Positions 11,743-21,509 of a DNA stretch of 52,836 bases are shown in pieces. The notes under the pieces were generated by a model. That model saw only the letters and a list, made by a program, of their open reading frames with translations, was not told the origin of the DNA and did no database searches. The position numbers and the translations under genes were made by a program. Every line of letters starts with the position of its first letter. Within the stretch, counting starts at the first letter, position 1. The DNA is from a virus. Lineage: Duplodnaviria; Caudoviricetes. The stretch spans positions 1 to 52,836 of the IMG/VR virus record IMGVR_UViG_3300009602_000016; one strand, given 5' to 3'.

Positions 11743-12153
11743 TCATCGCTTCATTATTAGCACCTTACGGATTTGGCCGGCAGGCAGGCGCCGCCCGGTG
11801 GTGCGGATTATGGCCCTGCTCAGTAGGGTTAATTTACATTCGAGGACCACGGACCAATCGAAGAGGAGGTACTGTAAGGGCCGCACCACACGGACGAGAA
11901 CAAAAGCTGTGCCGCCAGATTCACCCCACATCCGCAACCATAACTGCTGCTCGATGGATAAATCCAATGCTGCAGGATCGAAGGCCTTGAGCGACAAGGT
12001 GTCGATGCTTTTCAGCTCGATTAATCCTGTCTTGCCCGCAATGGTATACAGCACATCGGGTGTGCCTATGTGGGCAGGGTTCTCGATCCGCACCAGCGTC
12101 CCGTATTTCCGAAGGTGCTTCTTCAACGACAGCCAAAGTGATTTTTCTTTCAT
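11743..12153 (-). CDS. PD-(D/E)xK nuclease, VRR-NUC/Holliday junction resolvase-like
   Basis: MKEKSLW, RIEN..IGTPDV, LIELK, LSIEQQLWL..GG.AFVLV; directly downstream of PolA. Confidence 0.75.
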   Translation of the reverse strand: MKEKSLWLSLKKHLRKYGTLVRIENPAHIGTPDVLYTIAGKTGLIELKSIDTLSLKAFDPAALDLSIEQQLWLRMWGESGGTAFVLVRVVRPLQYLLFDWSVVLECKLTLLSRAIIRTTGRRLPAGQIRKVLIMKR

Positions 12154-14081
12154 CAGTCACACTCGCCCCAATGCCGCCCCTTCTGCATGTCCACCAGGAT
12201 GGGCACGCGGAACGGTATCGTCGTCTCCATCAGATACTTGGCTTCCTTCATGGCTGCAGTTCCTTCCTTCGTTTTCGGCACCGAAAAATCCAGCTCATCA
12301 TGGACGGTCAGCAAAGGGGCGCCCGTGACGTCGCACACCCCGCTCTCCCAGATATCGACCATGGCCTTCTTCATGACGTCCGCCGCCGATCCTTGGTCCA
12401 CAGCATTGAACGCCTTATGTGTGCCATACCGACGGACACCAGCTGCCGGCACCTTCTCCTTATTTTGCCGTGCCCGTTTCTGCTGTTCGCGTACGTACGC
12501 GAGCGCGTGTTCCTTTTTGCTGAATGGTCCGGTCTCCCGTGACAGGTTCCAATCCCGTGGCTCCCACTCCTTGAACCGCCGGCGACGCTTCAGGATCGTC
12601 CGCACATATCCACGGCCCTGGGCGACATCGGACGCCGCCCGGGTCGTGCTCCTAAGGAATGGCAGCCGCTTGTGATAGTCATTCAAGAAACCTTTGCCCT
12701 CCTCATATGACAGGTTGAGCTCATATGATGTCTTGGCGATGCCCATGCCGTAGACGATCCCAAAATTAACGGTCTTCGCTTGCTTCCGTCCAATGCTTGC
12801 CCACTCAGCGCACATGGCATGAAAATCTACATCCGGCTCATCTATATAACGTCTACGAATGTCCGCCGCTCCAGGCCCCCTTGCATAATGGGCTAAGATC
12901 CGCAGTTCCACTTGGCTGTAGTCCGCCCGATACCAGCGCTCGCCCACTTCCGCGACGAAGGCCGATCGGATCATCGGACCCAACTCAGGATCGCGGAGGG
13001 GGATGAATTGCAGGTTAGGATCAGACGAACTGAAACGACCGGTAACAGTTCCACCCTCATCAGATTTGGACTGGTGGAACTGGCAGTGGATACGGCCATC
13101 GATTATCTTGTTCAATAGTTGCCCCCGCACGAATGTCGATTTGAACTTGTCGATGGTGCGGACATTCAACAGGGCAGCCGCCAACGGGTGCTCATGGTTC
13201 TCGAGCCATTTCTTCTGGAAGCTCGGTTCTCCTTTCTTGGCCGTGGTCGGGTATGGAATGCCAGCGCCATCGAAGGCCGCAGCAATGGATCGGGCCGCCC
13301 ATGGCTTGACCTCACCCCCTGCTGCCTTGTCCAGAACCCGTTGGGCCTTGGCCAGACGTTTCTCCATCTCAGCATCAATGTCAAGCAGGCGTTTCTTACT
13401 GACGCGAACGCCCCTTCTACGCATGGCCAACAAGATGGGGGTGAGCCGACACTCCAGGTCGAACAGGTCCAGTAATTCTTCGGCTCCTAGGAGCTCCTCC
13501 TGGCGCGCTAAGATCCGTAATGGTGCTATGGCATCAACCTGTGCGTAGGCGGCCACGTGGCGCGCAGGGAGGCGCCACAAATGGGTCTGCGGGGCACCTT
13601 TCCACCCCGCAGCATTACATGCGGCCTCCATTTCATGGTAGCCATCCAGGCCGTGACTATCCATGACGTCATGGAACACCATTAGGTCTTCAAGACTGTA
13701 GTTCCCCCCCTTGTTTTCATCGAGCAGTGGCTCCGCTACTTGGACATCGCGGAAGGGTCCAGCGACATCCACCCCCTCCTCCGCTAGGTAGTCCAAGTCA
13801 TACAGAAGATTGGCACCCACTTTCGGCTGGTTAGGTCGTGTGAGCTCCTTTTTGGCCCATGCGATCACCTTCTTCTTAGGCAGGTTGTCTCCACCCTCAT
13901 GACCGAACGGAAGGTACCAGGAGCGGCCGTCAGGCACCGCGACGGAGATGCCCACCATATAGCCATCGCGCCGAACCCCTGGCCCCTTCGACTTCAGGTC
14001 AGGATCATGAGTCTCCGTGTCCAAGCCGATGGCATCAGCGGCCGATAAGTCAGGGAGGTCAGGGGGAGCCCAGTCGGTCAT
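12153..14081 (-). CDS. polA: DNA polymerase, family A, with 3'-5' exonuclease domain
   Basis: Exo I GLDTET, Exo II ANLLYD, Exo III YAQVD; TVTGRFSSSDPNLQ, motif A ADYSQVELRILAH, motif B RKQAKTVNFGIVYG (Phe at the 762-equivalent position), motif C TVHDEL; ATGA overlap sets start at 14081. Confidence 0.97.
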   Translation of the reverse strand: MTDWAPPDLPDLSAADAIGLDTETHDPDLKSKGPGVRRDGYMVGISVAVPDGRSWYLPFGHEGGDNLPKKKVIAWAKKELTRPNQPKVGANLLYDLDYLAEEGVDVAGPFRDVQVAEPLLDENKGGNYSLEDLMVFHDVMDSHGLDGYHEMEAACNAAGWKGAPQTHLWRLPARHVAAYAQVDAIAPLRILARQEELLGAEELLDLFDLECRLTPILLAMRRRGVRVSKKRLLDIDAEMEKRLAKAQRVLDKAAGGEVKPWAARSIAAAFDGAGIPYPTTAKKGEPSFQKKWLENHEHPLAAALLNVRTIDKFKSTFVRGQLLNKIIDGRIHCQFHQSKSDEGGTVTGRFSSSDPNLQFIPLRDPELGPMIRSAFVAEVGERWYRADYSQVELRILAHYARGPGAADIRRRYIDEPDVDFHAMCAEWASIGRKQAKTVNFGIVYGMGIAKTSYELNLSYEEGKGFLNDYHKRLPFLRSTTRAASDVAQGRGYVRTILKRRRRFKEWEPRDWNLSRETGPFSKKEHALAYVREQQKRARQNKEKVPAAGVRRYGTHKAFNAVDQGSAADVMKKAMVDIWESGVCDVTGAPLLTVHDELDFSVPKTKEGTAAMKEAKYLMETTIPFRVPILVDMQKGRHWGECD

Positions 14082-14545
14082 GGTGCGATCTGCCTCCATG
14101 TGCGGGTCTGTACCCTGTGGCGTCTGTGCCCGCTGTAAAGCCACTCCCGTTGGGCTACTTCATCGTGGGCATAGCGGTTCGTGAAGATGATGTGCTGGCA
14201 GCTGGTGTTGAGCAGCATCCGAACACAGAAGACGCAAGGGCTATGGGTGACATATGCGAAGACAATATCGTGGACATCAGAGCACTGCAGCATGGCATTG
14301 GCCTCTGCATGGACGGCCCGACAATGCTCCAACCCTTCCCCAGAAGGATAGCCCATGCCCGGGCAAGGATGGTCCGTGCAGTGTGGCACACCGGAAGATG
14401 GTCCGTTGTAACCAGTTGCCAAAGTATGCTTGTAGCCATTAACGAGGATGCATCCAACGCCCTCAGGCCGGCGGCCACAGGTGGACCGTTTTGCGGCCAA
14501 GGCCGCCATGCCCAAAAAGTATTCGTCTTGATCTGGACGGCCCAT
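14078..14545 (-). CDS. dCMP deaminase
   Basis: RSTCGRR, ATGYNG, HAEANA, SPCVFC zinc-binding motifs. Confidence 0.93.
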   Translation of the reverse strand: MGRPDQDEYFLGMAALAAKRSTCGRRPEGVGCILVNGYKHTLATGYNGPSSGVPHCTDHPCPGMGYPSGEGLEHCRAVHAEANAMLQCSDVHDIVFAYVTHSPCVFCVRMLLNTSCQHIIFTNRYAHDEVAQREWLYSGHRRHRVQTRTWRQIAP

Positions 14546-15255
14546 TAGAAGATCCCCCGCTTGTCCATGTCGCCCTGGAAGGCGTGTAGCGATCCAAGGA
14601 AGTGGATCATGGACCCGACATCAGCGCCAATCTCCTTGGCCATGTAGGCCAGCAACCCACATGCGAAATAGACATCGGCCGTGAAGAATTTGAGGAAGTC
14701 GCAGGATCGCTGGGAGTAGATGCAGTGGAGGTAGCCATTGCGCAGGCCAAATTGATAAGTGAGCGAGCAAGGCACACGGTCATGGCCGCCCCAATTCATC
14801 AGATCCCGATCGGCCATATACATCGAGATGATGGCCTGCCGAGTGTTGGGGTGTTCCTGCAGCTCACGGATCACGTACGGGATCTGCCAGTGCCACCGCT
14901 CAGCATAGGTGTAGCTGAAGGTGCCGTTCCGTATAAACTGCTTCCAGAAATCCTGGTTCTCAACCCAAGCATGGCCCGGGTTCTTGTTGACGGCACCCAG
15001 GTCAGTACGCTCTCGCAGTTCAGCCTGCACCCAGTTCTCCAGATGGGGCGTAGTATACTTCACCATCTCCATCATCTTGTCGCCGACGACCTGGTTCAGC
15101 GTGTATGAGTAGCCGAACAGTTCGAGCGTTTCATAGCGGGGGTCGTCAGCGACGTTTTGATCTTGGACCGTTGCTGTCTGATATCGATGGCCCATCTCAT
15201 ACAGATCCCGCTCGACTTCACGGACCATCTCCATGGGGTCAGAAAATATTCGCAT
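14545..15255 (-). CDS. Thymidylate synthase-family enzyme with dCMP-type specificity residue (putative dCMP hydroxymethylase/methylase)
   Basis: FSYTYAER, TRQAI, catalytic VPC, QRSCDFLKFFTAD (Asp where E. coli ThyA has Asn177), GSLHAF; TGATG coupling sets start at 15255. Confidence 0.85.
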   Translation of the reverse strand: MRIFSDPMEMVREVERDLYEMGHRYQTATVQDQNVADDPRYETLELFGYSYTLNQVVGDKMMEMVKYTTPHLENWVQAELRERTDLGAVNKNPGHAWVENQDFWKQFIRNGTFSYTYAERWHWQIPYVIRELQEHPNTRQAIISMYMADRDLMNWGGHDRVPCSLTYQFGLRNGYLHCIYSQRSCDFLKFFTADVYFACGLLAYMAKEIGADVGSMIHFLGSLHAFQGDMDKRGIF

Positions 15256-16136
15256 CACTTCGCCTCCTTGCGTTGAAATACCATGATCGTCTGGTACAAT
15301 GGCGGACGGACACCGAACCGCTTTTCGTATGTGTTGAGGTGCAGTGTGCCCGGATGATGCTTCAGGACGGCGGTGCCGACGGCCTTGGCCAACCCAGTCC
15401 GCATGACGGCGTCCGCCAACATCTGGTGGAGCATGAATGGCTGCTTGTTCCGCATCATGTCTTTGACACCGATCACCAGATGACCCTTTGGCTTTGTGTA
15501 CTTTAGGCATGTCGCATAGATCCGCGACATGGCCTCGAAGTATTCGTCGTTCTCACCCATGAAAGCCAGGTTGGGGTATTGATCGTCGTACTGGAATTTA
15601 TCCTGGGTGTCCTTCCAGAAACCCTTCTGCCGTGCGTCACCAGAATAGGGTGGATTGTTCACGGTCAATGCGAACTTCTTCTTGAGGCCTTTGAGGAAGT
15701 CGCCCATGTTGCGAGCGTCCCCATGGAGGATGCTGTACTTCTTGTCGAAGCAGTTGTTGGCTTCGATATTGGCTTGCACGACATCGACATACTGGATTTC
15801 GACGCCCGCAGCATTTCGGGCTGCCCGCAATGCCTCGACGGCTGTGGTCCCAGCGCCCATGGTCGGGTCGAAGACCCAATCCCCTGGCTTCGTGAATTGC
15901 TGAACAGCCCACCGCGCAATGTGCAGAGGTGTCTTGGCGATGTGTTTCACTTCGGCATCGGCGTAATAAGCCCGCCGTTCGATCCGAGAATACCGGGTTC
16001 CATCCTTTCGGATTAGTTCGCCCAGGTACCGGCCCACCGGTGGCGCGTGATAGTCCGTCGGGGGCCGCTTGCCCTTTTGGACATGGACCACCTCACCAGG
16101 GTCAACTGAGTTCTTCGCTTTCGTTTTGCTAGACAT
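15255..16136 (-). CDS. SAM-dependent amino-methyltransferase (motif I before NPPY motif IV)
   Basis: HIAKTP, VFDPTMGAGTT, GVEI, HGDAR, VNNPPYS. Confidence 0.85.
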   Translation of the reverse strand: MSSKTKAKNSVDPGEVVHVQKGKRPPTDYHAPPVGRYLGELIRKDGTRYSRIERRAYYADAEVKHIAKTPLHIARWAVQQFTKPGDWVFDPTMGAGTTAVEALRAARNAAGVEIQYVDVVQANIEANNCFDKKYSILHGDARNMGDFLKGLKKKFALTVNNPPYSGDARQKGFWKDTQDKFQYDDQYPNLAFMGENDEYFEAMSRIYATCLKYTKPKGHLVIGVKDMMRNKQPFMLHQMLADAVMRTGLAKAVGTAVLKHHPGTLHLNTYEKRFGVRPPLYQTIMVFQRKEAK

Positions 16137-17514
16137 TCGAAATTACTCCTTTATATTTTGGGGGTCGCCGTGGTTTCAAGGCAGGGTGCTTACGCATCTG
16201 CCGTCGCTTCTTGGCCTTGGGTTCCTTGGCCGCTTTCTTTGGAGCATCAGCCGGCCGCAAGAAATCCTCCAGATCAGGTTGGGGGATGGCGACACCGATG
16301 CCGTATTTATGGTGACGGATTTCACAGCGGGTATACATCCAGCAGGCACCACACGCCCGGGCCTGATCCGCATGGCCTGTGTTTTCACAATACCAGCGCT
16401 TGGCATCATCGATATAGGGGTTATGCGCCAGCAGTCGTGTTCCCGGTAGCTTACGTGGCTTGCCCTTGATATGGGCCGCCACCTGCTGGGCAAAGTTCCT
16501 GCAGAATTCTACGGGCATGAACTTCCCCGTCTGCTTGACCATGTGATTATTTCGCTCATGGTCCCAGGTGCCATCCTTTTCGTACTTGGTCCCATAGAAA
16601 ACGAAGTCATCTGGTGTGCCTTGCACGCGCGCCCGCTCGCGTAAAGAATAAGGATAGCCCGTTTTCGCATGGATAGTCGGGTTCTGCCCGGTCAACACAA
16701 AGGCCGGCCCGTCCCAATATCCCCGAGCAAATCCAATTCGCATCTTGACCGTGCCATCGGAGGCGTAGTAGGGGACATTCTGGCCTCGGCGAATGCCCTG
16801 CATGAATTTGGACAACTGGGACCATGACATCTTCTCATCGAGCACTTTGAAGCCCAAGGACTTACCGCATATGTTTCGGCGATTGTGCTTGTCGTGATTA
16901 GGCACCTCGCCTTCGCGGCCGTACAAATCTCCCAGCCGGGTCTCCACCGTTTGCTCATGCTCTTGTTCGTCCGGCACGAACACGAATTTCTCTTCTCGCA
17001 ATGCCCCAATGACAAAGAAGCGTTTCCGGTGTTTCTGAATGTTGCCGTAACCATGGTTCGATACCCACTCGAAAAAGATATCGTACTCCGGCAACTCTTC
17101 CACATATTTCGCTGCTGAATAGGCAATCAGGGATTTGGGCAAATCATCCATGGCGAAGAACCGTGGCTTGTATTTCTTCACCAGTTCGACGAATAGGGGA
17201 ATATCCCCTGGGTCATGGATGGCACTGCGTTTGTCGATCCGCATATTGCTGAAGTTGCCGCACTCCGGATGGGAGAACGCCAGATCAATCGGGCCAATGT
17301 CATCGAGCATCGGTGCCGTCGCTATGTCCTTCTCAAAGAAGGCACCAGGGAAATTCTCTTCGAATGTGTTGCGTCCCTCCTCATCGCGGTGATGGTAATA
17401 TCCACGCCATTCAATATTGCCCACGACATCGAAGCCAGCATCACGGGCGCCAATCAACATGGACCCAACGCCGCACGTCAGGCCAATGGCCTTAAGCTTC
17501 TTCCGGGCGGCCAT
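16129..17514 (-). CDS. Divergent C5-cytosine DNA methyltransferase homologue (candidate carboxymethyltransferase)
   Basis: Motifs in canonical order: I GLTCGVGS, II NIEW, IV HPECGNFS, VI FAMDDL, VIII YGNIQKHRKRFFVIG, IX SLRERARVQGTPDDF, X KQTGKFMP; C-terminal C-x11-C-x2-C-x5-C and basic tail. Confidence 0.85.
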   Translation of the reverse strand: MAARKKLKAIGLTCGVGSMLIGARDAGFDVVGNIEWRGYYHHRDEEGRNTFEENFPGAFFEKDIATAPMLDDIGPIDLAFSHPECGNFSNMRIDKRSAIHDPGDIPLFVELVKKYKPRFFAMDDLPKSLIAYSAAKYVEELPEYDIFFEWVSNHGYGNIQKHRKRFFVIGALREEKFVFVPDEQEHEQTVETRLGDLYGREGEVPNHDKHNRRNICGKSLGFKVLDEKMSWSQLSKFMQGIRRGQNVPYYASDGTVKMRIGFARGYWDGPAFVLTGQNPTIHAKTGYPYSLRERARVQGTPDDFVFYGTKYEKDGTWDHERNNHMVKQTGKFMPVEFCRNFAQQVAAHIKGKPRKLPGTRLLAHNPYIDDAKRWYCENTGHADQARACGACWMYTRCEIRHHKYGIGVAIPQPDLEDFLRPADAPKKAAKEPKAKKRRQMRKHPALKPRRPPKYKGVISNV

Positions 17515-18203
17515 CAGTAGTTCGACCTCTGCCGAAACTTATTCACCTCAGATTTTCTGAAGTACAGATTAAAGACGTCATCCCTGTCCATGCCGATCGC
17601 TTCGGCATACCCGATGAGGGCCGGCAGGGCCAGGGACAGGTGGGCGTAAAATCTTTGCTTGTCCGTGGCGACATGGGTGTTCTTCCATGGCTTATTCTTC
17701 AGGCAGTTGGCGGCCATGGCCAAAGCCTCGACGACATAATAAGCCCGCTCCGTGATGCCCCCATCGAAGAACTTCTCGAGGCCACCATAGCCGTGATCGC
17801 ATAGGACATCGAGCAGATCGACCTGGGCATCTTCCACCCACGAGTTCAGCCCGACCTTCAGCAACGTCTCCTCGGGTTTCATGCCGCACAGGATCATGGT
17901 CTCGACAAGGAAGTGCAGGGCGTCGGCACATTCCTCCTGGGCGTGGATGGGAACATCGGCGTGGTCGAAGTATGCTTCCGTCGACTCTCCAATCTCCTCG
18001 ACCGCCCGCCAGAACATATCCTTGATTAGCGCCTGCCATCGGGGATCATCTAGGTTGAAATCCACGCCGGCCACGATGGCATGGCCGACGCCGTTGGCGA
18101 ATTCGATCTGGTGGTACTTATTCATGAGGCTGGTCTGGCGTTCCCAGATCATCCACAGCCGATCCCCAGTAATCTCGGGGGCCTCCACATCATCCACGTT
18201 CAT
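17514..18203 (-). CDS. All-alpha (dimeric dUTPase/MazG-like) dNTP pyrophosphatase
   Basis: VEEIGES, QEECADALHF, LKNKPWK, LYFRKSEVNKFRQRSNY. Confidence 0.85.
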   Translation of the reverse strand: MNVDDVEAPEITGDRLWMIWERQTSLMNKYHQIEFANGVGHAIVAGVDFNLDDPRWQALIKDMFWRAVEEIGESTEAYFDHADVPIHAQEECADALHFLVETMILCGMKPEETLLKVGLNSWVEDAQVDLLDVLCDHGYGGLEKFFDGGITERAYYVVEALAMAANCLKNKPWKNTHVATDKQRFYAHLSLALPALIGYAEAIGMDRDDVFNLYFRKSEVNKFRQRSNY

Positions 18204-18397
18204 GTTCGTTTCTCCTTTGGTGCCGGCGCGGCCCGCATGAACCCTGCCGACGTTGAACTCATCAGCTCTGCAGCGACATTCGCTAAGAACCGCGTTACGA
18301 ACTCAGGGTCGATTTCACCGAACCTCTCCCGGGATAACCGATGAGCATCCTCGATCAATGCTGCTGCCCGTCGGTCGATGTCCACTTGGTCAGGCAT
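18200..18397 (-). CDS. Small hypothetical protein inside the modification operon
   Basis: Overlaps both neighbours; GGGAGC-like RBS; helical sequence. Confidence 0.55.
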   Translation of the reverse strand: MPDQVDIDRRAAALIEDAHRLSRERFGEIDPEFVTRFLANVAAELMSSTSAGFMRAAPAPKEKRT

Positions 18398-19769
18398 GTT
18401 CCCACCCCAGGCTGAGCATAGGTGCTGTCTCCGTGCAGAATTGTTCCACCAATCGACGGCGCCGCTTGATGGGGTCCTGCCGTACCTCGTGGATCTTCAG
18501 TGCCCACTTCTCCCGCTCCAGGATTTCCTTGGGTACGATGTCCTTGAACAATTCCTTGAGGTGCTCCTTCTCATGGCGAACGGCCCATGGAAGGGACAAG
18601 GCCCGTCGCACGACGTCACGTGCGAGGAAAGGGCATCGCAGCTCCACCGTGCCCGCCATCATCATCTTATCCAATCGGGGGAGATGGTACGAGACCACTT
18701 CATGGTGGAGGTCGGAGAATTGGCTGTCGTATTCCTTGGCCCGCCGATACCCACCGAACAACTCATCGGCACCGTCACCAGACAGGGCAACATGCGCCGC
18801 CTGCCTTCTCAAGGCCATGGCCAAAGCGAGTTGCGGGACCATGGACCCAAGGTCGACCGGTGTCTCATTCCAGTATAGAGCGACAGCATCGTTAATATCA
18901 TCCAGCTCGACCAATGTACGTTGCCCCGGCTGGAGGTCCAACAGGTTCAGATACTCTGCCTCATCATTGTCGGCATGGTAGACACGAACGTCGGCCTCCC
19001 GCCGCGCCAGCTCGAGGACGATGGTACTGTCGAGGCCACCGGATGCCAGGATTGACACGGGCAGATCTGAAATCAATCGACGGCTCACTGCCTTCTCAAT
19101 GTGCTCCCGCAGGTCCGTCGGGTTCAGGGGTGATAGGTCACACCACCGCTTTTCAAAAACAAGGTGGGCGTCACCATCAGCCGTGAACGTCATGAGATGC
19201 CCGGGCACCATTTTCCAGATCTGAGCGAATGGTGTTAATCGGGCCTCAGGATCGTAGCCCCATTTTTGCACGGTCGCCAGATATTGCCGGTCCAGCTCGC
19301 CATTCGACATCGGGACCAGGGCCCGCAATTCTGAGCTCACCGCCAAGGTCGTCTCCGATGCCAGAGCATACAGCGGCTTCTTCGCCAGATCATCGGTGGC
19401 GATCGTGACGCAGTTGCCATCGAACAGGGCCATGGCGAAGAAGCCATCGAATTCGTTGAATGCTTCCCACCCCCGATCGGCCAACCGCGCTAACGCCACT
19501 GGCAGATCGGATGGCGCCCCTGGTTGGATTTCCCTGAAGTTGAACACCTCACCGACCATGGCCCCCTCCAGGCTATTGACCGTTTGCGGATGGTCGAATT
19601 CTTCCCCTGTCCCCTGGATGGGCAAGCGGACATGGCCGACGGCGGTCTTCCCCCAGGTCCATGACCGTGAGCGTAAGCCACGATGACCTGTCACGGAGTT
19701 CATCTTTTCCACCAGGGCCAGGGGGTTCGATGTCTCCGGACAACGCAGCACGATGTTGAGGCCACACAT
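18390..19769 (-). CDS. Asparagine synthetase B-like amidotransferase (Ntn glutaminase + PP-loop adenylation domain)
   Basis: N-terminal MCG, GHRG, GHVRL, GEVFN, KKPLY, PP-loop SGGLDS, LSGDGADELFGGY, RLDKMMM..VELRCPFL. Confidence 0.93.
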   Translation of the reverse strand: MCGLNIVLRCPETSNPLALVEKMNSVTGHRGLRSRSWTWGKTAVGHVRLPIQGTGEEFDHPQTVNSLEGAMVGEVFNFREIQPGAPSDLPVALARLADRGWEAFNEFDGFFAMALFDGNCVTIATDDLAKKPLYALASETTLAVSSELRALVPMSNGELDRQYLATVQKWGYDPEARLTPFAQIWKMVPGHLMTFTADGDAHLVFEKRWCDLSPLNPTDLREHIEKAVSRRLISDLPVSILASGGLDSTIVLELARREADVRVYHADNDEAEYLNLLDLQPGQRTLVELDDINDAVALYWNETPVDLGSMVPQLALAMALRRQAAHVALSGDGADELFGGYRRAKEYDSQFSDLHHEVVSYHLPRLDKMMMAGTVELRCPFLARDVVRRALSLPWAVRHEKEHLKELFKDIVPKEILEREKWALKIHEVRQDPIKRRRRLVEQFCTETAPMLSLGWEHA

Positions 19770-20308
19770 CAGACGATGTGTCCACGCCGTAGGATGGCTG
19801 AGAGCACCAAGGGGTCATGGCATGACCAATCATGCCATATGACAGCCATAGCGGTGCTGACGGCGATCTGCGGCATGATGAGGTCGTATCTACGGATGAG
19901 GTCGACTGACCGGGTGCGCACCCGGGTCATGTGCTCGGCAGATTTATGGGCCTTCAGTTCGGAGCGCATGATGGCGGCGAGGATGGTATCCATGGATGGT
20001 CGGCAGTAGATGAGGGCGACTGGTTGCCGGTGGGAAAGGTCCCGTAAATTCTGCCAAAGGTCCGTGTCAGGAAGCATCGGGCCATCGCGGACGATGGGAC
20101 CATAGACCAGTTCGCTGATTGCGCCGTACCGGTCCAGGATGATGGAGGGTTGCCGGTCGCCGGGCAACTCCATCCGCCGTTCTAATTCAGCATGGTCTTC
20201 GGGTGGTCCACCCTCATGCCGAATGTCTAACCCCAGGTCATCAGCCAATGCTTGGCCGAGGCAAGTCTTGCCAGCACCATCAGGGCCTTCCAGAATTATC
20301 ATGCCCAT
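19769..20308 (-). CDS. P-loop nucleoside monophosphate kinase (thymidylate kinase-like)
   Basis: IILEGPDGAGKT, ILDRY..SELVYGP. Confidence 0.85.
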   Translation of the reverse strand: MGMIILEGPDGAGKTCLGQALADDLGLDIRHEGGPPEDHAELERRMELPGDRQPSIILDRYGAISELVYGPIVRDGPMLPDTDLWQNLRDLSHRQPVALIYCRPSMDTILAAIMRSELKAHKSAEHMTRVRTRSVDLIRRYDLIMPQIAVSTAMAVIWHDWSCHDPLVLSAILRRGHIV

Positions 20309-20525: not shown

Positions 20526-21509
20526 TTACTTGAGCAGCGAGTACGTCTCCGTCTTCCGGTCGTACTGGATCTTCATCGGCTCTTTCGTCCGCTTGGGATT
20601 GCGCAGGATGGACACGGCAACGGCCGCGTTCTTGCTGTCGCAACCCAGGGCCTTCATGATGGCGTCCTTGGTGACCTTTTTCTTCTTGGTGAACAGGTCA
20701 CGCAGGATCGTTTGATAGGACACCTTGCCCTTCGTCTTACCACCCTTTTTCGCGGGGGCGGCTTTGGCGGCGGTCTTCTTGGTCGCGGTCTTTTTTCCCT
20801 TGGTAGCCATTTCTAGTTCCTTCCGGTTTCTGTATAGCTTGGCGGTGGGTCCAAACATGCCAAAGGTTCGCACGAGTGCTTCCTGGTCATCTCTGAACCG
20901 GTCGCGATCATCACCGGTCAAGCTGTTAAACAGCCGTATGATTACGGCCATATCCAACGACTGCAGGTCATCCGCAGTCGCAGCAATTAGGGTGGTATCA
21001 TCATCCTTGCACGACCCCACCCATTTCTTGGCACCCGCCATCGTGGGGAATGCCCAGATCCGAAATTGCTCCGGCTCACCTTTCTTCTTGCCAGCCTCAG
21101 TGTAGAGCAATCCATAGAAAGCTGACCCCGGGGACAGAACCACATCGGGATCTGCGCCACGGAGCATAGCCAGGACACGGGCACTGGCGTCAAATGATAA
21201 CGGCAGCTCCCGTGGGTCACGGCCCTCCGCGACAAGACCATCGCGAGAGGACAACATTTTCTTCAGGCGCTTGCTCAAGTGGTGGGCAACCTGATCCAAC
21301 GATGCTGGATCATCCCACCCCATGAACATCCGCCCCCATTCAGACATTGAGACGGATGTGTCAATCAAGCTGTGGATGCACAAGAGCCGCACCTTCGGGC
21401 GGGCGGTCTGGTAGGCCACGACATGGCGACGACCAAGACCAATCCGCGCGGAGGTATGGTCCTCCTGCACATAGACATCTGCGTAGCCGAAAAGTCGTTT
21501 GTCAGTCAT
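20526..21509 (-). CDS. Hypothetical protein with C-terminal Lys/Ala-rich DNA-binding domain; probable in-frame internal start at 20810 (94 aa)
   Basis: Internal AAGGAACTAGAAATG precedes MATKGKKTATKKTAAKAAPAKKGG followed by a winged-helix-like segment. Confidence 0.65.
   Translation of the reverse strand: MTDKRLFGYADVYVQEDHTSARIGLGRRHVVAYQTARPKVRLLCIHSLIDTSVSMSEWGRMFMGWDDPASLDQVAHHLSKRLKKMLSSRDGLVAEGRDPRELPLSFDASARVLAMLRGADPDVVLSPGSAFYGLLYTEAGKKKGEPEQFRIWAFPTMAGAKKWVGSCKDDDTTLIAATADDLQSLDMAVIIRLFNSLTGDDRDRFRDDQEALVRTFGMFGPTAKLYRNRKELEMATKGKKTATKKTAAKAAPAKKGGKTKGKVSYQTILRDLFTKKKKVTKDAIMKALGCDSKNAAVAVSILRNPKRTKEPMKIQYDRKTETYSLLK

What the first reader, a model, noticed from the sequence alone, without database searches (positions are those of the whole stretch)
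16129..17514. C5-methyltransferase homologue that naturally carries the substitutions that make a DNA carboxymethyltransferase
Seen: motif X is KQTGKFMP where M.HhaI has KQFGNSVV, so the conserved Asn is Lys (codon 16522-16524). The residue after the catalytic Cys (17260-17262) is Gly, not Gln (PECG vs PCQ). Motif VI is DDL instead of ENV, while the motif VIII Q..RxR is intact. Established: this Asn and Gln (M.HhaI N304/Q82, M.MpeI N374/Q136) gate the cofactor pocket; shrinking them admits bulky SAM analogues, and M.MpeI N374K uses carboxy-SAM to make 5-carboxymethylcytosine. Inference: a natural carboxymethyl (or other bulky group) transferase whose acid product is the substrate of the neighbouring AsnB-like enzyme. 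ENV>DDL may signal a changed target base (U or hmC). No CmoA-like carboxy-SAM synthase is recognisable in the genome, so the cofactor would be host-derived or different. From memory a natural phage carboxymethyltransferase has been reported in a cyanophage; that should be checked to judge novelty.
Basis: partly seen in the sequence, partly recalled or inferred. Interest (0 to 1): 0.92.

Follow-up and report, generated by a model that had tools for sequence, protein, structure and literature searches.

The report
Remodelled cytosine-methyltransferase homologue in phage hypermodification operon
A marine phage gene that looks like a DNA cytosine methyltransferase carries, in every relative, an altered active-site pocket and always travels with enzymes that replace and decorate cytosine, so it probably helps to build an undescribed modified DNA base.

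Summary
ORF 16129-17514(-) is a divergent C5-cytosine-methyltransferase homologue with HPECG (Gly after the catalytic Cys85), DDL for ENV, an intact QxRxR and KQTGKFMP (Lys331 where canonical enzymes have Asn and the natural carboxymethyltransferase SpCmoX has Arg350). These are family traits: Gly 104 of 104, Lys 90 and Arg 9 of 104.

This is not a CmoX-type system. It lacks SPPC and Arg350. No CmoA was found in 0 of 45 related viral genomes.

Instead it sits in a conserved operon: dNMP kinase, AsnB-like amidotransferase, NTP pyrophosphatase, C5-MTase-like, NPPY methyltransferase, dCMP-type thymidylate-synthase homologue, dCMP deaminase, PolA. All 14 near-complete genomes with the gene also carry the TS homologue and the AsnB-like gene. 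The TS/AsnB pair occurs without the MTase-like gene in 57 of 80 loci.

My best reading (about 0.38) is a post-replicative enzyme. It would use Cys-C6 covalent catalysis on the 5-substituted cytosine supplied by the TS route, building an acid side chain that is then amidated. Cx-SAM carboxymethylation remains a rival (about 0.22).

I found no description of the family in the papers searched, and no cultured phage carries it.

The parts
16129..17514 (-). C5-cytosine-methyltransferase-fold enzyme, 461 aa, the finding. Motif I GLTCGVGS, II IEWR, IV HPECG, VI MDDLP, VIII QKHRKR, IX RERARVQGTPDDF, X KQTGKFMP. It ends in a 4-Cys module and a basic tail.
17257..17262 (-). Codons of the catalytic Cys85 and of Gly86. 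Canonical enzymes have Gln here and SpCmoX has Ser.
   Evidence: Both residues invariant in 104 of 104. Alignment.
16522..16524 (-). Lys331 codon, at the motif X position of canonical Asn and SpCmoX Arg350.
   Evidence: K 90, R 9 of 104.
17143..17148 (-). Asp123-Asp124, motif VI, in place of Glu-Asn of ENV.
16324..16389 (-). Cys376-X11-Cys388-X2-Cys391-X5-Cys397 module. It is probably metal-binding. It is modelled confidently as helices.
18390..19769 (-). AsnB-like glutamine-dependent amidotransferase. It has an N-terminal Cys2 glutaminase and an SGGLDS PP-loop synthetase domain.
   Evidence: Pfam PF00733 1.7e-35 plus GATase_6/7. TIGR01536 5e-56, below cut-off. Found with the MTase-like gene in 39 of 45 sources.
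17514..18203 (-). All-alpha NTP pyrophosphatase of the dUTPase_2/MazG type. Candidate dCTPase/dUTPase.
   Evidence: Some NTP-PPase is present in 41 of 45 sources.
18200..18397 (-). 65-aa ORF that overlaps both neighbours. No family found.
19769..20308 (-). dNMP or thymidylate-kinase-like P-loop kinase.
   Evidence: phrog_761 1.5e-16. 19 of 45 sources.
15255..16136 (-). NPPY-motif amino-methyltransferase homologue. Its start overlaps the stop of the MTase-like gene by 8 nt.
   Evidence: PF01555 2.1e-15. HemK/PrmC/CcrM-level hits. 18 of 45 sources, fused to the C5-MTase-like domain in 3.
14545..15255 (-). Thymidylate-synthase homologue, 236 aa from the internal Met. By E. coli ThyA numbering it has Asp at N177, Asp at D169 and Arg at L143. 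Predicted dCMP C5-modifying enzyme.
   Evidence: Diagnostic positions from PMC13326640.
14078..14545 (-). dCMP deaminase.
   Evidence: PF00383 6e-15. 35 of 45 sources.
12153..14144 (-). Family A DNA polymerase at the end of the same minus-strand gene string.

Best explanation
The gene encodes an active covalent-catalysis enzyme of the C5-cytosine-methyltransferase fold. It works on phage DNA after replication, as the DNA-level step of a T4-style deoxycytidine-replacement pathway.

Inferred pathway:
- The NTP pyrophosphatase and the dCMP-specific TS homologue convert dCTP/dCMP into a 5-substituted dCMP, most probably 5-hydroxymethyl-dCMP.
- The kinase and the phage PolA put that nucleotide into DNA.
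- The MTase-like enzyme flips out the 5-substituted cytosine, and Cys85 adds to C6.
- The space opened by Gly86 and the charge of Lys331 then serve the C5 side chain. They hold and exchange or extend the 5-CH2-X group through the exocyclic-methylene intermediate. This is the chemistry that ordinary C5-MTases show in vitro with 5hmC and thiols.
- The result is a carboxyl-bearing side chain, which the AsnB-like glutamine amidotransferase turns into an amide.

Shown: the motif changes and their conservation, the fold, the operon, the co-occurrence pattern and the absence of CmoA.

Inferred: the substrate, the leaving group, the incoming group and the order of steps.
For: (1) The catalytic apparatus for C6 attack and base flipping is invariant: Cys85, Gln160, Arg163 and Arg165 in 104 of 104, and an acidic residue at 123 in 104 of 104. 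Some members carry an intein directly before the Cys.

(2) There is a strict one-way dependence on the TS homologue. By six-frame HMM search the TS homologue is present in 40 of 45 sources, plus one elsewhere in its genome. That covers all 14 records at least 90% complete. The TS and AsnB pair exists without the MTase-like gene in 57 of 80 AsnB loci. This is the pattern expected of a downstream accessory enzyme.

(3) The TS homologue has Asp at the ThyA N177 position in 36 of 36 module members and 44 of 44 MTase-less members. It also keeps Asp169. By the published diagnostics (PMC13326640, sections read; PMC8670742) that means a dCMP substrate and not a 5-hydroxy-dCMP synthase.

(4) Clostridium phage CPAS-15 has the same TS clade (36% identity, same Arg/Asp/Asp signature) and the same pyrophosphatase (40%). 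Its order is kinase, pyrophosphatase, glycosyltransferase, TS, PolA. A hydroxyl-using transferase thus sits in the slot that the MTase-like gene holds here. This supports a hydroxymethyl handle.

(5) No Cx-SAM source was found: CmoA in 0 of 45 genomes, 0 of 80 loci, and 0 of 3 MAGs above cut-off.

(6) Unlike SpCmoX, the family has lost canonical AdoMet-contact features. The motif I Phe is Thr in 68 of 104, the motif III Asp is not conserved, and PPC is P-E-C.

(7) There is a chemical precedent. An engineered M.SssI couples thiols to 5hmC in DNA, and M.HhaI hydroxymethylates C (passages of PMC7176277). From recall only: that engineered M.SssI carries Ala at the same two gate positions.
Against: No natural enzyme of this fold is known to act on 5hmC. 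The ribose and adenine contacts of motif II are kept (Glu35 97 of 104, Trp36 76 of 104), as is the GxGS loop. That points to a bound adenosyl cofactor, which this mechanism does not need. A small residue after Cys combined with Lys or Arg in motif X has exactly two precedents, and both use Cx-SAM. In MTase-less phages the AsnB-like enzyme must find its acid substrate by some other, unidentified route. The TS product is inferred from three residues and from one syntenic glycosyltransferase; the invariant Arg at the L143 position is uncharacterised. I could not inspect the pocket in 3D.
Confidence: 0.38

Rival explanations
1. A natural Lys-type DNA cytosine C5-carboxymethyltransferase uses host-made Cx-SAM on ordinary cytosine. 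The neighbouring AsnB-like enzyme then amidates 5-carboxymethyl-C to 5-carbamoylmethyl-C.
For: Lys331 aligns with SpCmoX Arg350 and with the canonical Asn. Gly86 aligns with SpCmoX Ser and with the canonical Gln. Lys and Arg interchange in the family, 90 and 9 of 104, which suggests an anionic ligand. M.MpeI N374K and SpCmoX both use Cx-SAM, and SpCmoX R350N is dead. The adenosyl-binding Glu-Trp and the Gly loop are kept. An AMP-forming ligase next to the MTase mirrors CmoY/CmoX. The paper also reports an uncharacterised ligase cluster with a glutaminase domain next to CmoX.
Against: CmoA is found in 0 of 45 viral genomes, including 14 near-complete ones, and in 0 of 80 AsnB loci. The paper found 4257 CmoA genes in the contigs of its 5615 CmoX sequences. 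The window comes from marine metagenomes. CmoA is above cut-off in only 4 of 121 genomes of the class of one MAG host candidate, and not in the Synechococcus or Caulobacter controls. The model does not explain the obligatory dCMP-type TS homologue. Phage S-B43, the characterised CmoX phage, has none. The AsnB-like gene occurs without this MTase in 57 of 80 loci. The AsnB-like protein shows only PP-loop-level similarity to SpCmoY.
Confidence: 0.22
2. A DNA-level mop-up enzyme that acts on residual unmodified cytosine with a donor other than Cx-SAM. Candidate donors: another group of SAM such as 3-amino-3-carboxypropyl, or a small electrophile such as formaldehyde, glyoxylate or CO2. The product would be the same or a related side chain as the nucleotide route gives.
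For: This keeps the need for Cys85 and for C5-H chemistry. It needs no CmoA. It explains why the gene is accessory to the TS and AsnB core. Lys331, and Glu84 in 72 of 104 members, could hold a carboxylate and an ammonium group. Aldehyde addition by C5-MTases is documented (PMC7176277).
Against: This is pure inference and no precedent exists in DNA. If a dCTPase removes dCTP, little C5-H substrate would be left. The donor is unidentified.
Confidence: 0.15
3. An ordinary SAM-dependent m5C methyltransferase with drifted motifs. It would protect the phage from host restriction and would be unrelated to its neighbours.
For: Pfam PF00145 is above cut-off. The fold matches m5C MTases. Catalytic residues are present.
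Against: The deviations are invariant across a clade down to 30% identity rather than drifting. Gene order is conserved, and the gene is fused with, or overlaps, the pathway genes. The Asn-to-Lys or Asn-to-Arg change switches known enzymes away from SAM. The gene is never seen outside the TS and AsnB module in near-complete genomes.
Confidence: 0.06

Closest known systems
SpCmoX, the DNA cytosine C5-carboxymethyltransferase of Synechococcus phage S-B43 (PDB 8YF3; Yang et al. 2025, PMC12783734)
   Same: C5-MTase fold (Foldseek E 2e-15, TMt 0.67). A basic residue at the HhaI Asn304 position and a small residue after the catalytic Cys. An asparagine-synthetase-family ligase and a pyrophosphatase lie in the neighbourhood.
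   Different: Lys, not Arg. HPEC, not SPPC. D(D/N)L, not ENV. The motif I Phe and motif III Asp are lost. No CmoA. An obligatory dCMP-type TS homologue, which S-B43 lacks. The ligase has a glutaminase domain and is unrelated to SpCmoY beyond the PP-loop. Sequence similarity is marginal.
Engineered M.MpeI N374K (Cx-SAM-using CpG methyltransferase), and the steric gate mutants of M.HhaI and M.SssI
   Same: Lys at the motif X Asn position. The Gln after Cys is replaced by a small residue. The gate mutants and their residue numbers are from the finding and from recall. N374K is cited in PMC12783734.
   Different: Those are laboratory point mutants of canonical enzymes working on unmodified CpG. 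This is a natural, deeply diverged clade inside a nucleotide-replacement operon.
T4-type cytosine replacement modules: dCTPase, dCMP hydroxymethylase, dNMP kinase, dCMP deaminase plus a DNA-level transferase. Examples are the T4 glucosyltransferases and the 5hmC carbamoyltransferase of PMC8670742.
   Same: The same set of nucleotide-level genes, with a TS homologue carrying Asp at N177. One or more DNA-level enzymes are encoded between them. The related Clostridium phage CPAS-15 has a glycosyltransferase in that slot.
   Different: The DNA-level enzymes here are a C5-MTase-fold protein, an AsnB-like amidotransferase and an NPPY methyltransferase. None of these is known to act on 5hmC. The TS clade has Arg, not Asp or Glu, at the L143 position.
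Atypical in-vitro reactions of C5-MTases (Klimasauskas laboratory): aldehyde addition to C, and thiol coupling to 5hmC
   Same: These give the chemical logic of the proposed mechanism: a Cys-C6 adduct, then exchange at the exocyclic carbon (PMC7176277, passages).
   Different: They are known only as side reactions of methyltransferases in vitro. No natural enzyme or pathway has been assigned to them.

Membership tests
DNA (cytosine-5) methyltransferase superfamily (PF00145) | Profile match above the curated cut-off, and the fold | tested here: met
   56.9 bits against a cut-off of 22. AF2 pLDDT 92.5, with top Foldseek hits all C5-MTases. It is below the TIGR00675 cut-off: 35.1 against 100.65.
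DNA (cytosine-5) methyltransferase superfamily (PF00145) | Catalytic Pro-Cys dipeptide in motif IV | tested here: inconclusive
   The Cys is invariant, but it is preceded by Glu (E 72, S 12, D 7, K 7, A 4 of 104). The Pro lies one residue earlier.
DNA (cytosine-5) methyltransferase superfamily (PF00145) | Motif VI ENV glutamate and motif VIII QxRxR | tested here: inconclusive
   QxRxR is invariant. Glu is replaced by Asp in 100 of 104 members.
DNA (cytosine-5) methyltransferase superfamily (PF00145) | Motif X Gly-Asn and the AdoMet-binding FxGxG | tested here: not met
   Asn is replaced: K 90, R 9, and N in only 2 of 104. The motif I Phe is Thr in 68 of 104.
CmoX (Cx-SAM-dependent DNA cytosine carboxymethyltransferase, Yang et al. 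2025) | SPPC motif | tested here: not met
   HPEC here. H 98, P 93, E 72 of 104. The criterion is quoted.
CmoX (Cx-SAM-dependent DNA cytosine carboxymethyltransferase, Yang et al. 2025) | Arg350 contacting the carboxymethyl group | tested here: not met
   Lys331 at the aligned position. Arg occurs in only 9 of 104 relatives. Functionally it may be equivalent, by analogy with N374K.
CmoX (Cx-SAM-dependent DNA cytosine carboxymethyltransferase, Yang et al. 2025) | Association with a Cx-SAM synthase CmoA | tested here: not met
   0 of 1 (own genome), 0 of 44, 0 of 80, and 0 of 3 above cut-off.
CmoX (Cx-SAM-dependent DNA cytosine carboxymethyltransferase, Yang et al. 2025) | Transfer of carboxymethyl from Cx-SAM to C5 of cytosine | not testable with these tools
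   Needs enzymology or LC-MS.
T4-type deoxycytidine replacement module | TS homologue with Asp at ThyA N177 (dCMP substrate) | tested here: met
   36 of 36 and 44 of 44. The register comes from QRSxD plus 8 residues and from HMMER alignments to TS structures.
T4-type deoxycytidine replacement module | Acidic residue at the ThyA L143 position, typical of hydroxymethylases | tested here: not met
   Arg is invariant. Its meaning is unknown. The same Arg occurs in the glycosyltransferase-linked Clostridium phage enzyme.
T4-type deoxycytidine replacement module | dCTPase, dNMP kinase and dCMP deaminase encoded alongside | tested here: inconclusive
   The families are present, but the base specificity of the pyrophosphatase cannot be read from sequence.
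5-hydroxy-dCMP synthase clade of TS homologues (Lee et al. 2026) | Asn at the ThyA D169 position | tested here: not met
   Asp in 36 of 36 and 44 of 44. The criterion was read.

The most novel reading that the evidence does not exclude
A methyltransferase scaffold has been turned by phages into a DNA-level thymidylate-synthase-like exchange enzyme. It would re-activate 5-hydroxymethylcytosine already in DNA through a Cys-C6 adduct and swap the hydroxyl for a carboxyl-bearing group. An AsnB-like amidotransferase and an NPPY methyltransferase would then amidate and perhaps N-methylate that group. The result would be an undescribed amide-type hypermodified cytosine, replacing C in a widespread group of uncultured marine and soil phages. 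It would also be the first natural use of the atypical C5-MTase reactions known so far only in vitro.
Probability: 0.28. Interest if true: 0.92.

Novelty: new variant of a known kind. Interest (0 to 1): 0.78.

Why it matters
If either leading reading holds, this operon encodes a cytosine hypermodification that has not been chemically described. The family is large: 459 proteins at E <= 1e-3, and 96 clusters at 50% identity with E <= 1e-30. In the related AsnB-like search, 468 viral stretches encoded a relative, of which 80 were kept. No cultured phage carries the family; the best hit in 50,697 phage records is 27% identical.

A natural Lys-type enzyme would widen the definition of DNA carboxymethyltransferases beyond the published SPPC/Arg350 filter. 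A 5hmC-processing enzyme would add a new reaction class to phage anti-restriction chemistry, and a new tool for labelling 5hmC.

The work also yields a practical rule. Gly after the catalytic Cys plus Lys or Arg in motif X does not by itself identify a Cx-SAM enzyme. Genomic context (CmoA versus a dCMP-type TS homologue) separates two different systems.

Tried and rejected
1. Pfam-based test for the TS homologue in five records gave 0 of 5, which briefly suggested TS-less genomes. A family-specific HMM and profile then showed this was a false negative: L041 at 4.6e-88, and G033 and G040 at 1e-81 and 1e-92. I reject the TS-less reading.

2. Complex prediction of the MTase-like enzyme (residues 1-410) with the AsnB-like enzyme gave no verdict, score 0.00. 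It is not used as evidence.

3. The look-up of sequencing runs listed 15 runs, all kept as contigs, all labelled marine metagenome, with no RNA holder. No raw or nanopore reads were available, so modification-dependent miscalls could not be examined.

4. Literature on PDB entries 9IQU and 9IQC found nothing relevant. Iyer et al. 2013 is not held, so I could not check whether it predicted this module. Searches for a described TS, AsnB and C5-MTase-like system found none in the library. Supplementary files of PMC12783734 were not seen. They could show whether Lys variants turned up in that paper's searches.

5. PDB sequence search with residues 270-352 alone did not reach motif X. The hhalign and hmmsearch alignments also stop before motif X. 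I therefore settled the register with MAFFT --add.

6. The genome-contig scan returned only 3 loci. Two are phage contigs binned into MAGs and one is a partial copy in an 11-Mb MAG. They give weak host hints only. The ORF listing of L049 added nothing.

7. A T4-like group has the kinase and the AsnB-like gene beside gp23. No TS homologue was found there, but those records are only 17-42% complete, so this is inconclusive.

8. The L039/L040 group lacks the AsnB-like gene in the DNA held. Those records are 8-23% complete, so this is inconclusive.

9. My first NPPY-MTase HMM was contaminated by truncated C5-MTase ORFs, which produced a figure of 42 fused. I discarded it and redid the count with jackhmmer: 18 of 45 sources, 3 fused.

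10. I considered uracil as the target base. I rejected it as less likely, because both motif VI positions are acidic or amide and the TS homologue is of the Asp (cytosine) type.

11. The ESM Atlas returned only viral PF00145 clusters and gave no new lead.


Full report
**What is there**

The window is a 52.8-kb IMG/VR virus record, estimated 94% complete. It has about 57% G+C and no tRNA genes. It carries Pam3 gp33/gp34-like proteins, an AEP primase, UvrD and SNF2 helicases and a family A polymerase. Near-identical DNA stands in 14 runs labelled marine metagenome, held as contigs only.

ORF 16129-17514(-) encodes 461 aa. It matches Pfam DNA_methylase at E 3e-15. AlphaFold2 models it at pLDDT 92.5 with a 104-sequence alignment. 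Foldseek then returns only C5-cytosine methyltransferases: MET1/DNMT1, HaeIII, 3g7u, SpCmoX 8yf3 and HhaI.

**The observation**

Cys85 is codon 17260-17262, followed by Gly86. Motif VI is MDDLP and motif VIII is QKHRKR. Motif X is KQTGKFMP, with Lys331 at 16522-16524.

I fetched SpCmoX from the S-B43 record MN018232.1 and two canonical phage m5C methyltransferases. I added them to the family alignment. GKFMP lies over GRMVP of SpCmoX (Arg350) and over GNALP/GNAVP. HPECG lies over SPPCS and PPCQ. DDL lies over ENV.

HMM alignments to PDB sequences stop just before motif X. The equivalence therefore rests on motif register.

**A family, not an oddity**

The protein has 459 relatives at E <= 1e-3 in the 90%-clustered collection; the best 120 are 44-54% identical. 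An exhaustive search of 50%-identity representatives gives 507 hits: 170 at E <= 1e-10 and 96 at E <= 1e-30.

Across 104 full-length members down to 27% identity:
- Cys85, Gly86, Gln160, Arg163, Arg165 and Arg37 are invariant.
- Position 331 is K 90, R 9, Q 2, N 2, A 1.
- Position 123 is D 100, E 4.
- Position 124 is D 57, N 42, E 5.
- His82 occurs in 98.
- Glu84 occurs in 72.
- Glu35 occurs in 97 and Trp36 in 76.
- The motif I Phe of canonical enzymes is Thr in 68.
- The motif III Asp is not conserved.
- Four C-terminal cysteines are each present in 94-96.

Some members are fused to an N6_N4-type methyltransferase, or carry an intein directly before the catalytic Cys.

The nearest Atlas clusters are 96-100% viral (aside). 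In 50,697 phage GenBank records the best hit is 27% identical. Among 185,579 species genomes only three loci appear. Two are phage contigs binned into MAGs.

**What is known**

Yang et al. 2025 (PMC12783734; abstract, Results and Discussion read) showed that Synechococcus phage S-B43 encodes three relevant enzymes:
- CmoA, a Cx-SAM synthase.
- CmoX, a C5-MTase homologue that makes 5-carboxymethyl-C at GC sites. It accepts only Cx-SAM and is dead as R350N.
- CmoY, an asparagine-synthetase-like ligase that adds glycine.

Their database search required SPPC and R350. It found 5615 CmoX sequences, with 4257 CmoA genes identified in the contigs carrying them. They also noted an uncharacterised ligase cluster with a glutaminase domain.

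The present family fails both sequence criteria, so that filter would have excluded it. By profile it is only marginally similar to 8yf3 (E 1.6e-4).

**Context decides**

The gene is one link in a string of minus-strand genes with overlapping stops and starts: kinase (19769-20308), AsnB-like (18390-19769), a 65-aa ORF, dUTPase_2/MazG-like pyrophosphatase (17514-18203), the MTase-like gene, an NPPY methyltransferase (15255-16136), a TS homologue (14545-15255), dCMP deaminase (14078-14545) and PolA.

I collected 44 related viral loci. With the window they make 45 sources, which I searched in six frames with family HMMs:

| Component | Sources with it, of 45 |
|---|---|
| MTase-like | 45 |
| TS homologue | 40 (plus one elsewhere in its genome) |
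| AsnB-like | 39 |
| dCMP deaminase | 35 |
| An NTP pyrophosphatase | 41 |
| Kinase | 19 |
| NPPY methyltransferase | 18 (fused in 3) |

All sources lacking the TS or the AsnB homologue are contig fragments. All 14 records at least 90% complete have both. Gene order is conserved.

CmoA (TIGR00740) is absent from the window and from 0 of 44 related records. The three MAGs have none above cut-off.

A Pfam-only search had wrongly suggested two TS-less complete genomes. The family profile corrected this. S-B43, the characterised CmoX phage, has no TS homologue of this clade.

**The TS homologue**

HMMER alignments to TS structures, and the fixed spacing from the QRSxD motif, place Asp at the E. 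coli ThyA N177 position, Asp at D169, and Arg three residues before the catalytic Cys (the L143 position). This holds in 36 of 36 module members and in 44 of 44 members from MTase-less phages.

According to Lee et al. 2026 (PMC13326640, sections 24 and 28 read) and the MetaGPA paper (PMC8670742, passages):
- Asp177 means a dCMP substrate.
- Asn169 marks 5-hydroxy-dCMP synthases.
- Leu143 goes with methyl products, and Asp or Glu with hydroxymethyl products.

The enzyme is therefore a dCMP C5-modifying enzyme that is not a 5hoC synthase. Its Arg143 is uncharacterised.

Clostridium phage CPAS-15 has the closest cultured relatives of both the TS homologue (36%) and the pyrophosphatase (40%). It shows the same Arg/Asp/Asp signature. 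Its order is kinase, pyrophosphatase, glycosyltransferase, TS, PolA. A hydroxyl-using transferase thus occupies the slot of the MTase-like gene. This is my main reason to expect a hydroxymethyl handle.

**The AsnB-like enzyme**

It has the N-terminal Cys glutaminase and the SGGLDS PP-loop. It is unrelated to SpCmoY beyond the PP-loop.

A search of IMG/VR with its family alignment matched 504 stretches, of which 468 encoded a relative; 80 loci were kept. Of those 80, 66 have the TS homologue within 8 kb, only 23 have the MTase-like gene, and none has a CmoA-like gene.

The 57 MTase-less loci mostly show TS, AsnB and dCMP deaminase in direct succession. With them come PolB, a PRA-PH-type MazG, a homologue of the same NPPY methyltransferase (34-44% identity), UvsX, DnaB, ThyX and, in some, ribosomal protein S21.

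The conserved core is therefore TS homologue plus AsnB-like enzyme, with deaminase, pyrophosphatase, kinase and NPPY methyltransferase. The C5-MTase-like enzyme is an accessory of the PolA-type phages.

**Weighing the mechanisms**

It has a small residue after Cys, and Lys/Arg interchange at the Asn304 position. The only two enzymes known with that combination transfer carboxymethyl from Cx-SAM. The Glu-Trp ribose and adenine contacts are also kept.

The model has three difficulties:
- No relative carries cmoA. Likely hosts rarely have it: 4 of 121 genomes in the class of one MAG host candidate, and the Synechococcus and Caulobacter controls are below cut-off.
- It gives no reason for the obligatory dCMP-type TS homologue, pyrophosphatase and kinase. 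In the T4 paradigm these remove the C5-H substrate.
- The AsnB-like enzyme is mainly a partner of the TS homologue.

The same two pocket changes are what an enzyme would need to admit a cytosine that already bears a C5 side chain. Residues 86 and 331 flank the C5-methyl axis.

Ordinary C5-MTases can do this chemistry in vitro. An engineered M.SssI couples thiols to 5hmC, and M.HhaI hydroxymethylates C (PMC7176277, passages). From recall only: that engineered M.SssI carries Ala at these same two positions.

I therefore rank first, at about 0.38, a post-replicative enzyme. It would add Cys85 to C6 of the TS-derived 5-substituted cytosine and exchange or extend the side chain into an acid, which the AsnB-like enzyme amidates.

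The other readings rank as follows:
- Cx-SAM carboxymethylation: about 0.22.
- A DNA-level mop-up on residual C with another donor: about 0.15.
- Plain m5C methylation: about 0.06.
- The remainder is unassigned.

None of the chemical steps is shown. The identity of the TS product, the incoming group and the level at which the AsnB-like enzyme acts (nucleotide or DNA) are all inferred.

**Novelty**

The gene belongs to a known superfamily and resembles a system published in 2025. It fails that system's defining features and sits in a different, conserved pathway. I found no description of that pathway in the library. Iyer et al. 2013 and the supplements of PMC12783734 could not be read.

I classify it as a new variant of a known kind. 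There is a fair chance that the chemistry is new.

Noticed in passing
window 15255-16136 (-): NPPY-motif methyltransferase homologue with motif I before motif IV. It scores at the same weak level against HemK/PrmC/PrmB glutamine-amide methyltransferases and CcrM-type adenine methyltransferases. It is adjacent to the C5-MTase-like gene in most of the 18 of 45 sources that have it, is fused to it in 3, and is also present in the MTase-less TS and AsnB phages. Speculation: it could N-methylate the amide or amine made by the pathway rather than adenine.
   Followed up: partly
window 16324-16389 (-), residues 376-397 of the MTase-like protein: A Cys-X11-Cys-X2-Cys-X5-Cys module, conserved in 94-96 of 104 relatives, modelled with high confidence and followed by a Lys/Arg/Pro-rich tail. 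The last three spacings recall, from memory, the Fe-S cluster loop of EndoIII/MutY. The metal is unknown.
   Followed up: partly
proteins P0034, P0051, P0073, P0109; alignment A1 columns 106-421: Several family members carry an intein-like insertion of about 320 residues exactly between Glu84 and the catalytic Cys85. It includes PF04480/PF18741 endonuclease-type domains, and a Hint domain in one member.
   Followed up: no
window 14545-15255 (-); L041:11605-12495; G033:30687-31526: The TS-homologue clade is so divergent that Pfam PF00303 misses some members entirely (0 of 5), while a clade profile finds them at E 1e-81 to 1e-97. Surveys of phage thymidylate-synthase homologues based on Pfam will undercount this clade.
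   Followed up: yes
PDB 9IQU/9IQC/9IR2: The closest solved relatives of the TS homologue (E 3e-13, 234-238 aa, deposited as 'Thymidylate synthase') align Asn to the ThyA D169 position and Asp to N177. That is the published signature of 5-hydroxy-dCMP synthases. I found no paper for these entries.
   Followed up: partly
loci L085-L140: A large group of viral contigs has TS homologue, AsnB-like gene and dCMP deaminase in direct succession without any C5-MTase-like gene. They also carry PolB, PRA-PH MazG, UvsX, DnaB, ThyX and, in some, ribosomal protein S21. Conserved unknown genes lie beside them (about 310 aa after MazG, and about 117 aa before the TS homologue).
   Followed up: partly
L041:15794-16804 (+) (G040, complete 75-kb genome): An Amidoligase_2 (PF12224, E 1.3e-42) gene lies about 4.4 kb downstream of the MTase-like gene, in a phage that also has the AsnB-like gene. 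This would be a second carboxylate-amine ligase in the same neighbourhood.
   Followed up: no
L046 (Clostridium phage CPAS-15, MN417334.1 12445-15216): The gene order is kinase ('shikimate kinase'), dUTPase-like, glycosyltransferase ('WcaC'), TS homologue, with a dCMP-type TS signature. This suggests that these Clostridium perfringens phages carry a glycosylated 5-substituted cytosine.
   Followed up: no
window 20526-21509 (-) and 18200-18397 (-): A 327-aa ORF with a Lys-rich middle and a 65-aa ORF lie inside or next to the operon. Neither has a Pfam, PHROG or NCBIfam match. The 327-aa protein has a homologue in the same position in L043.
   Followed up: no
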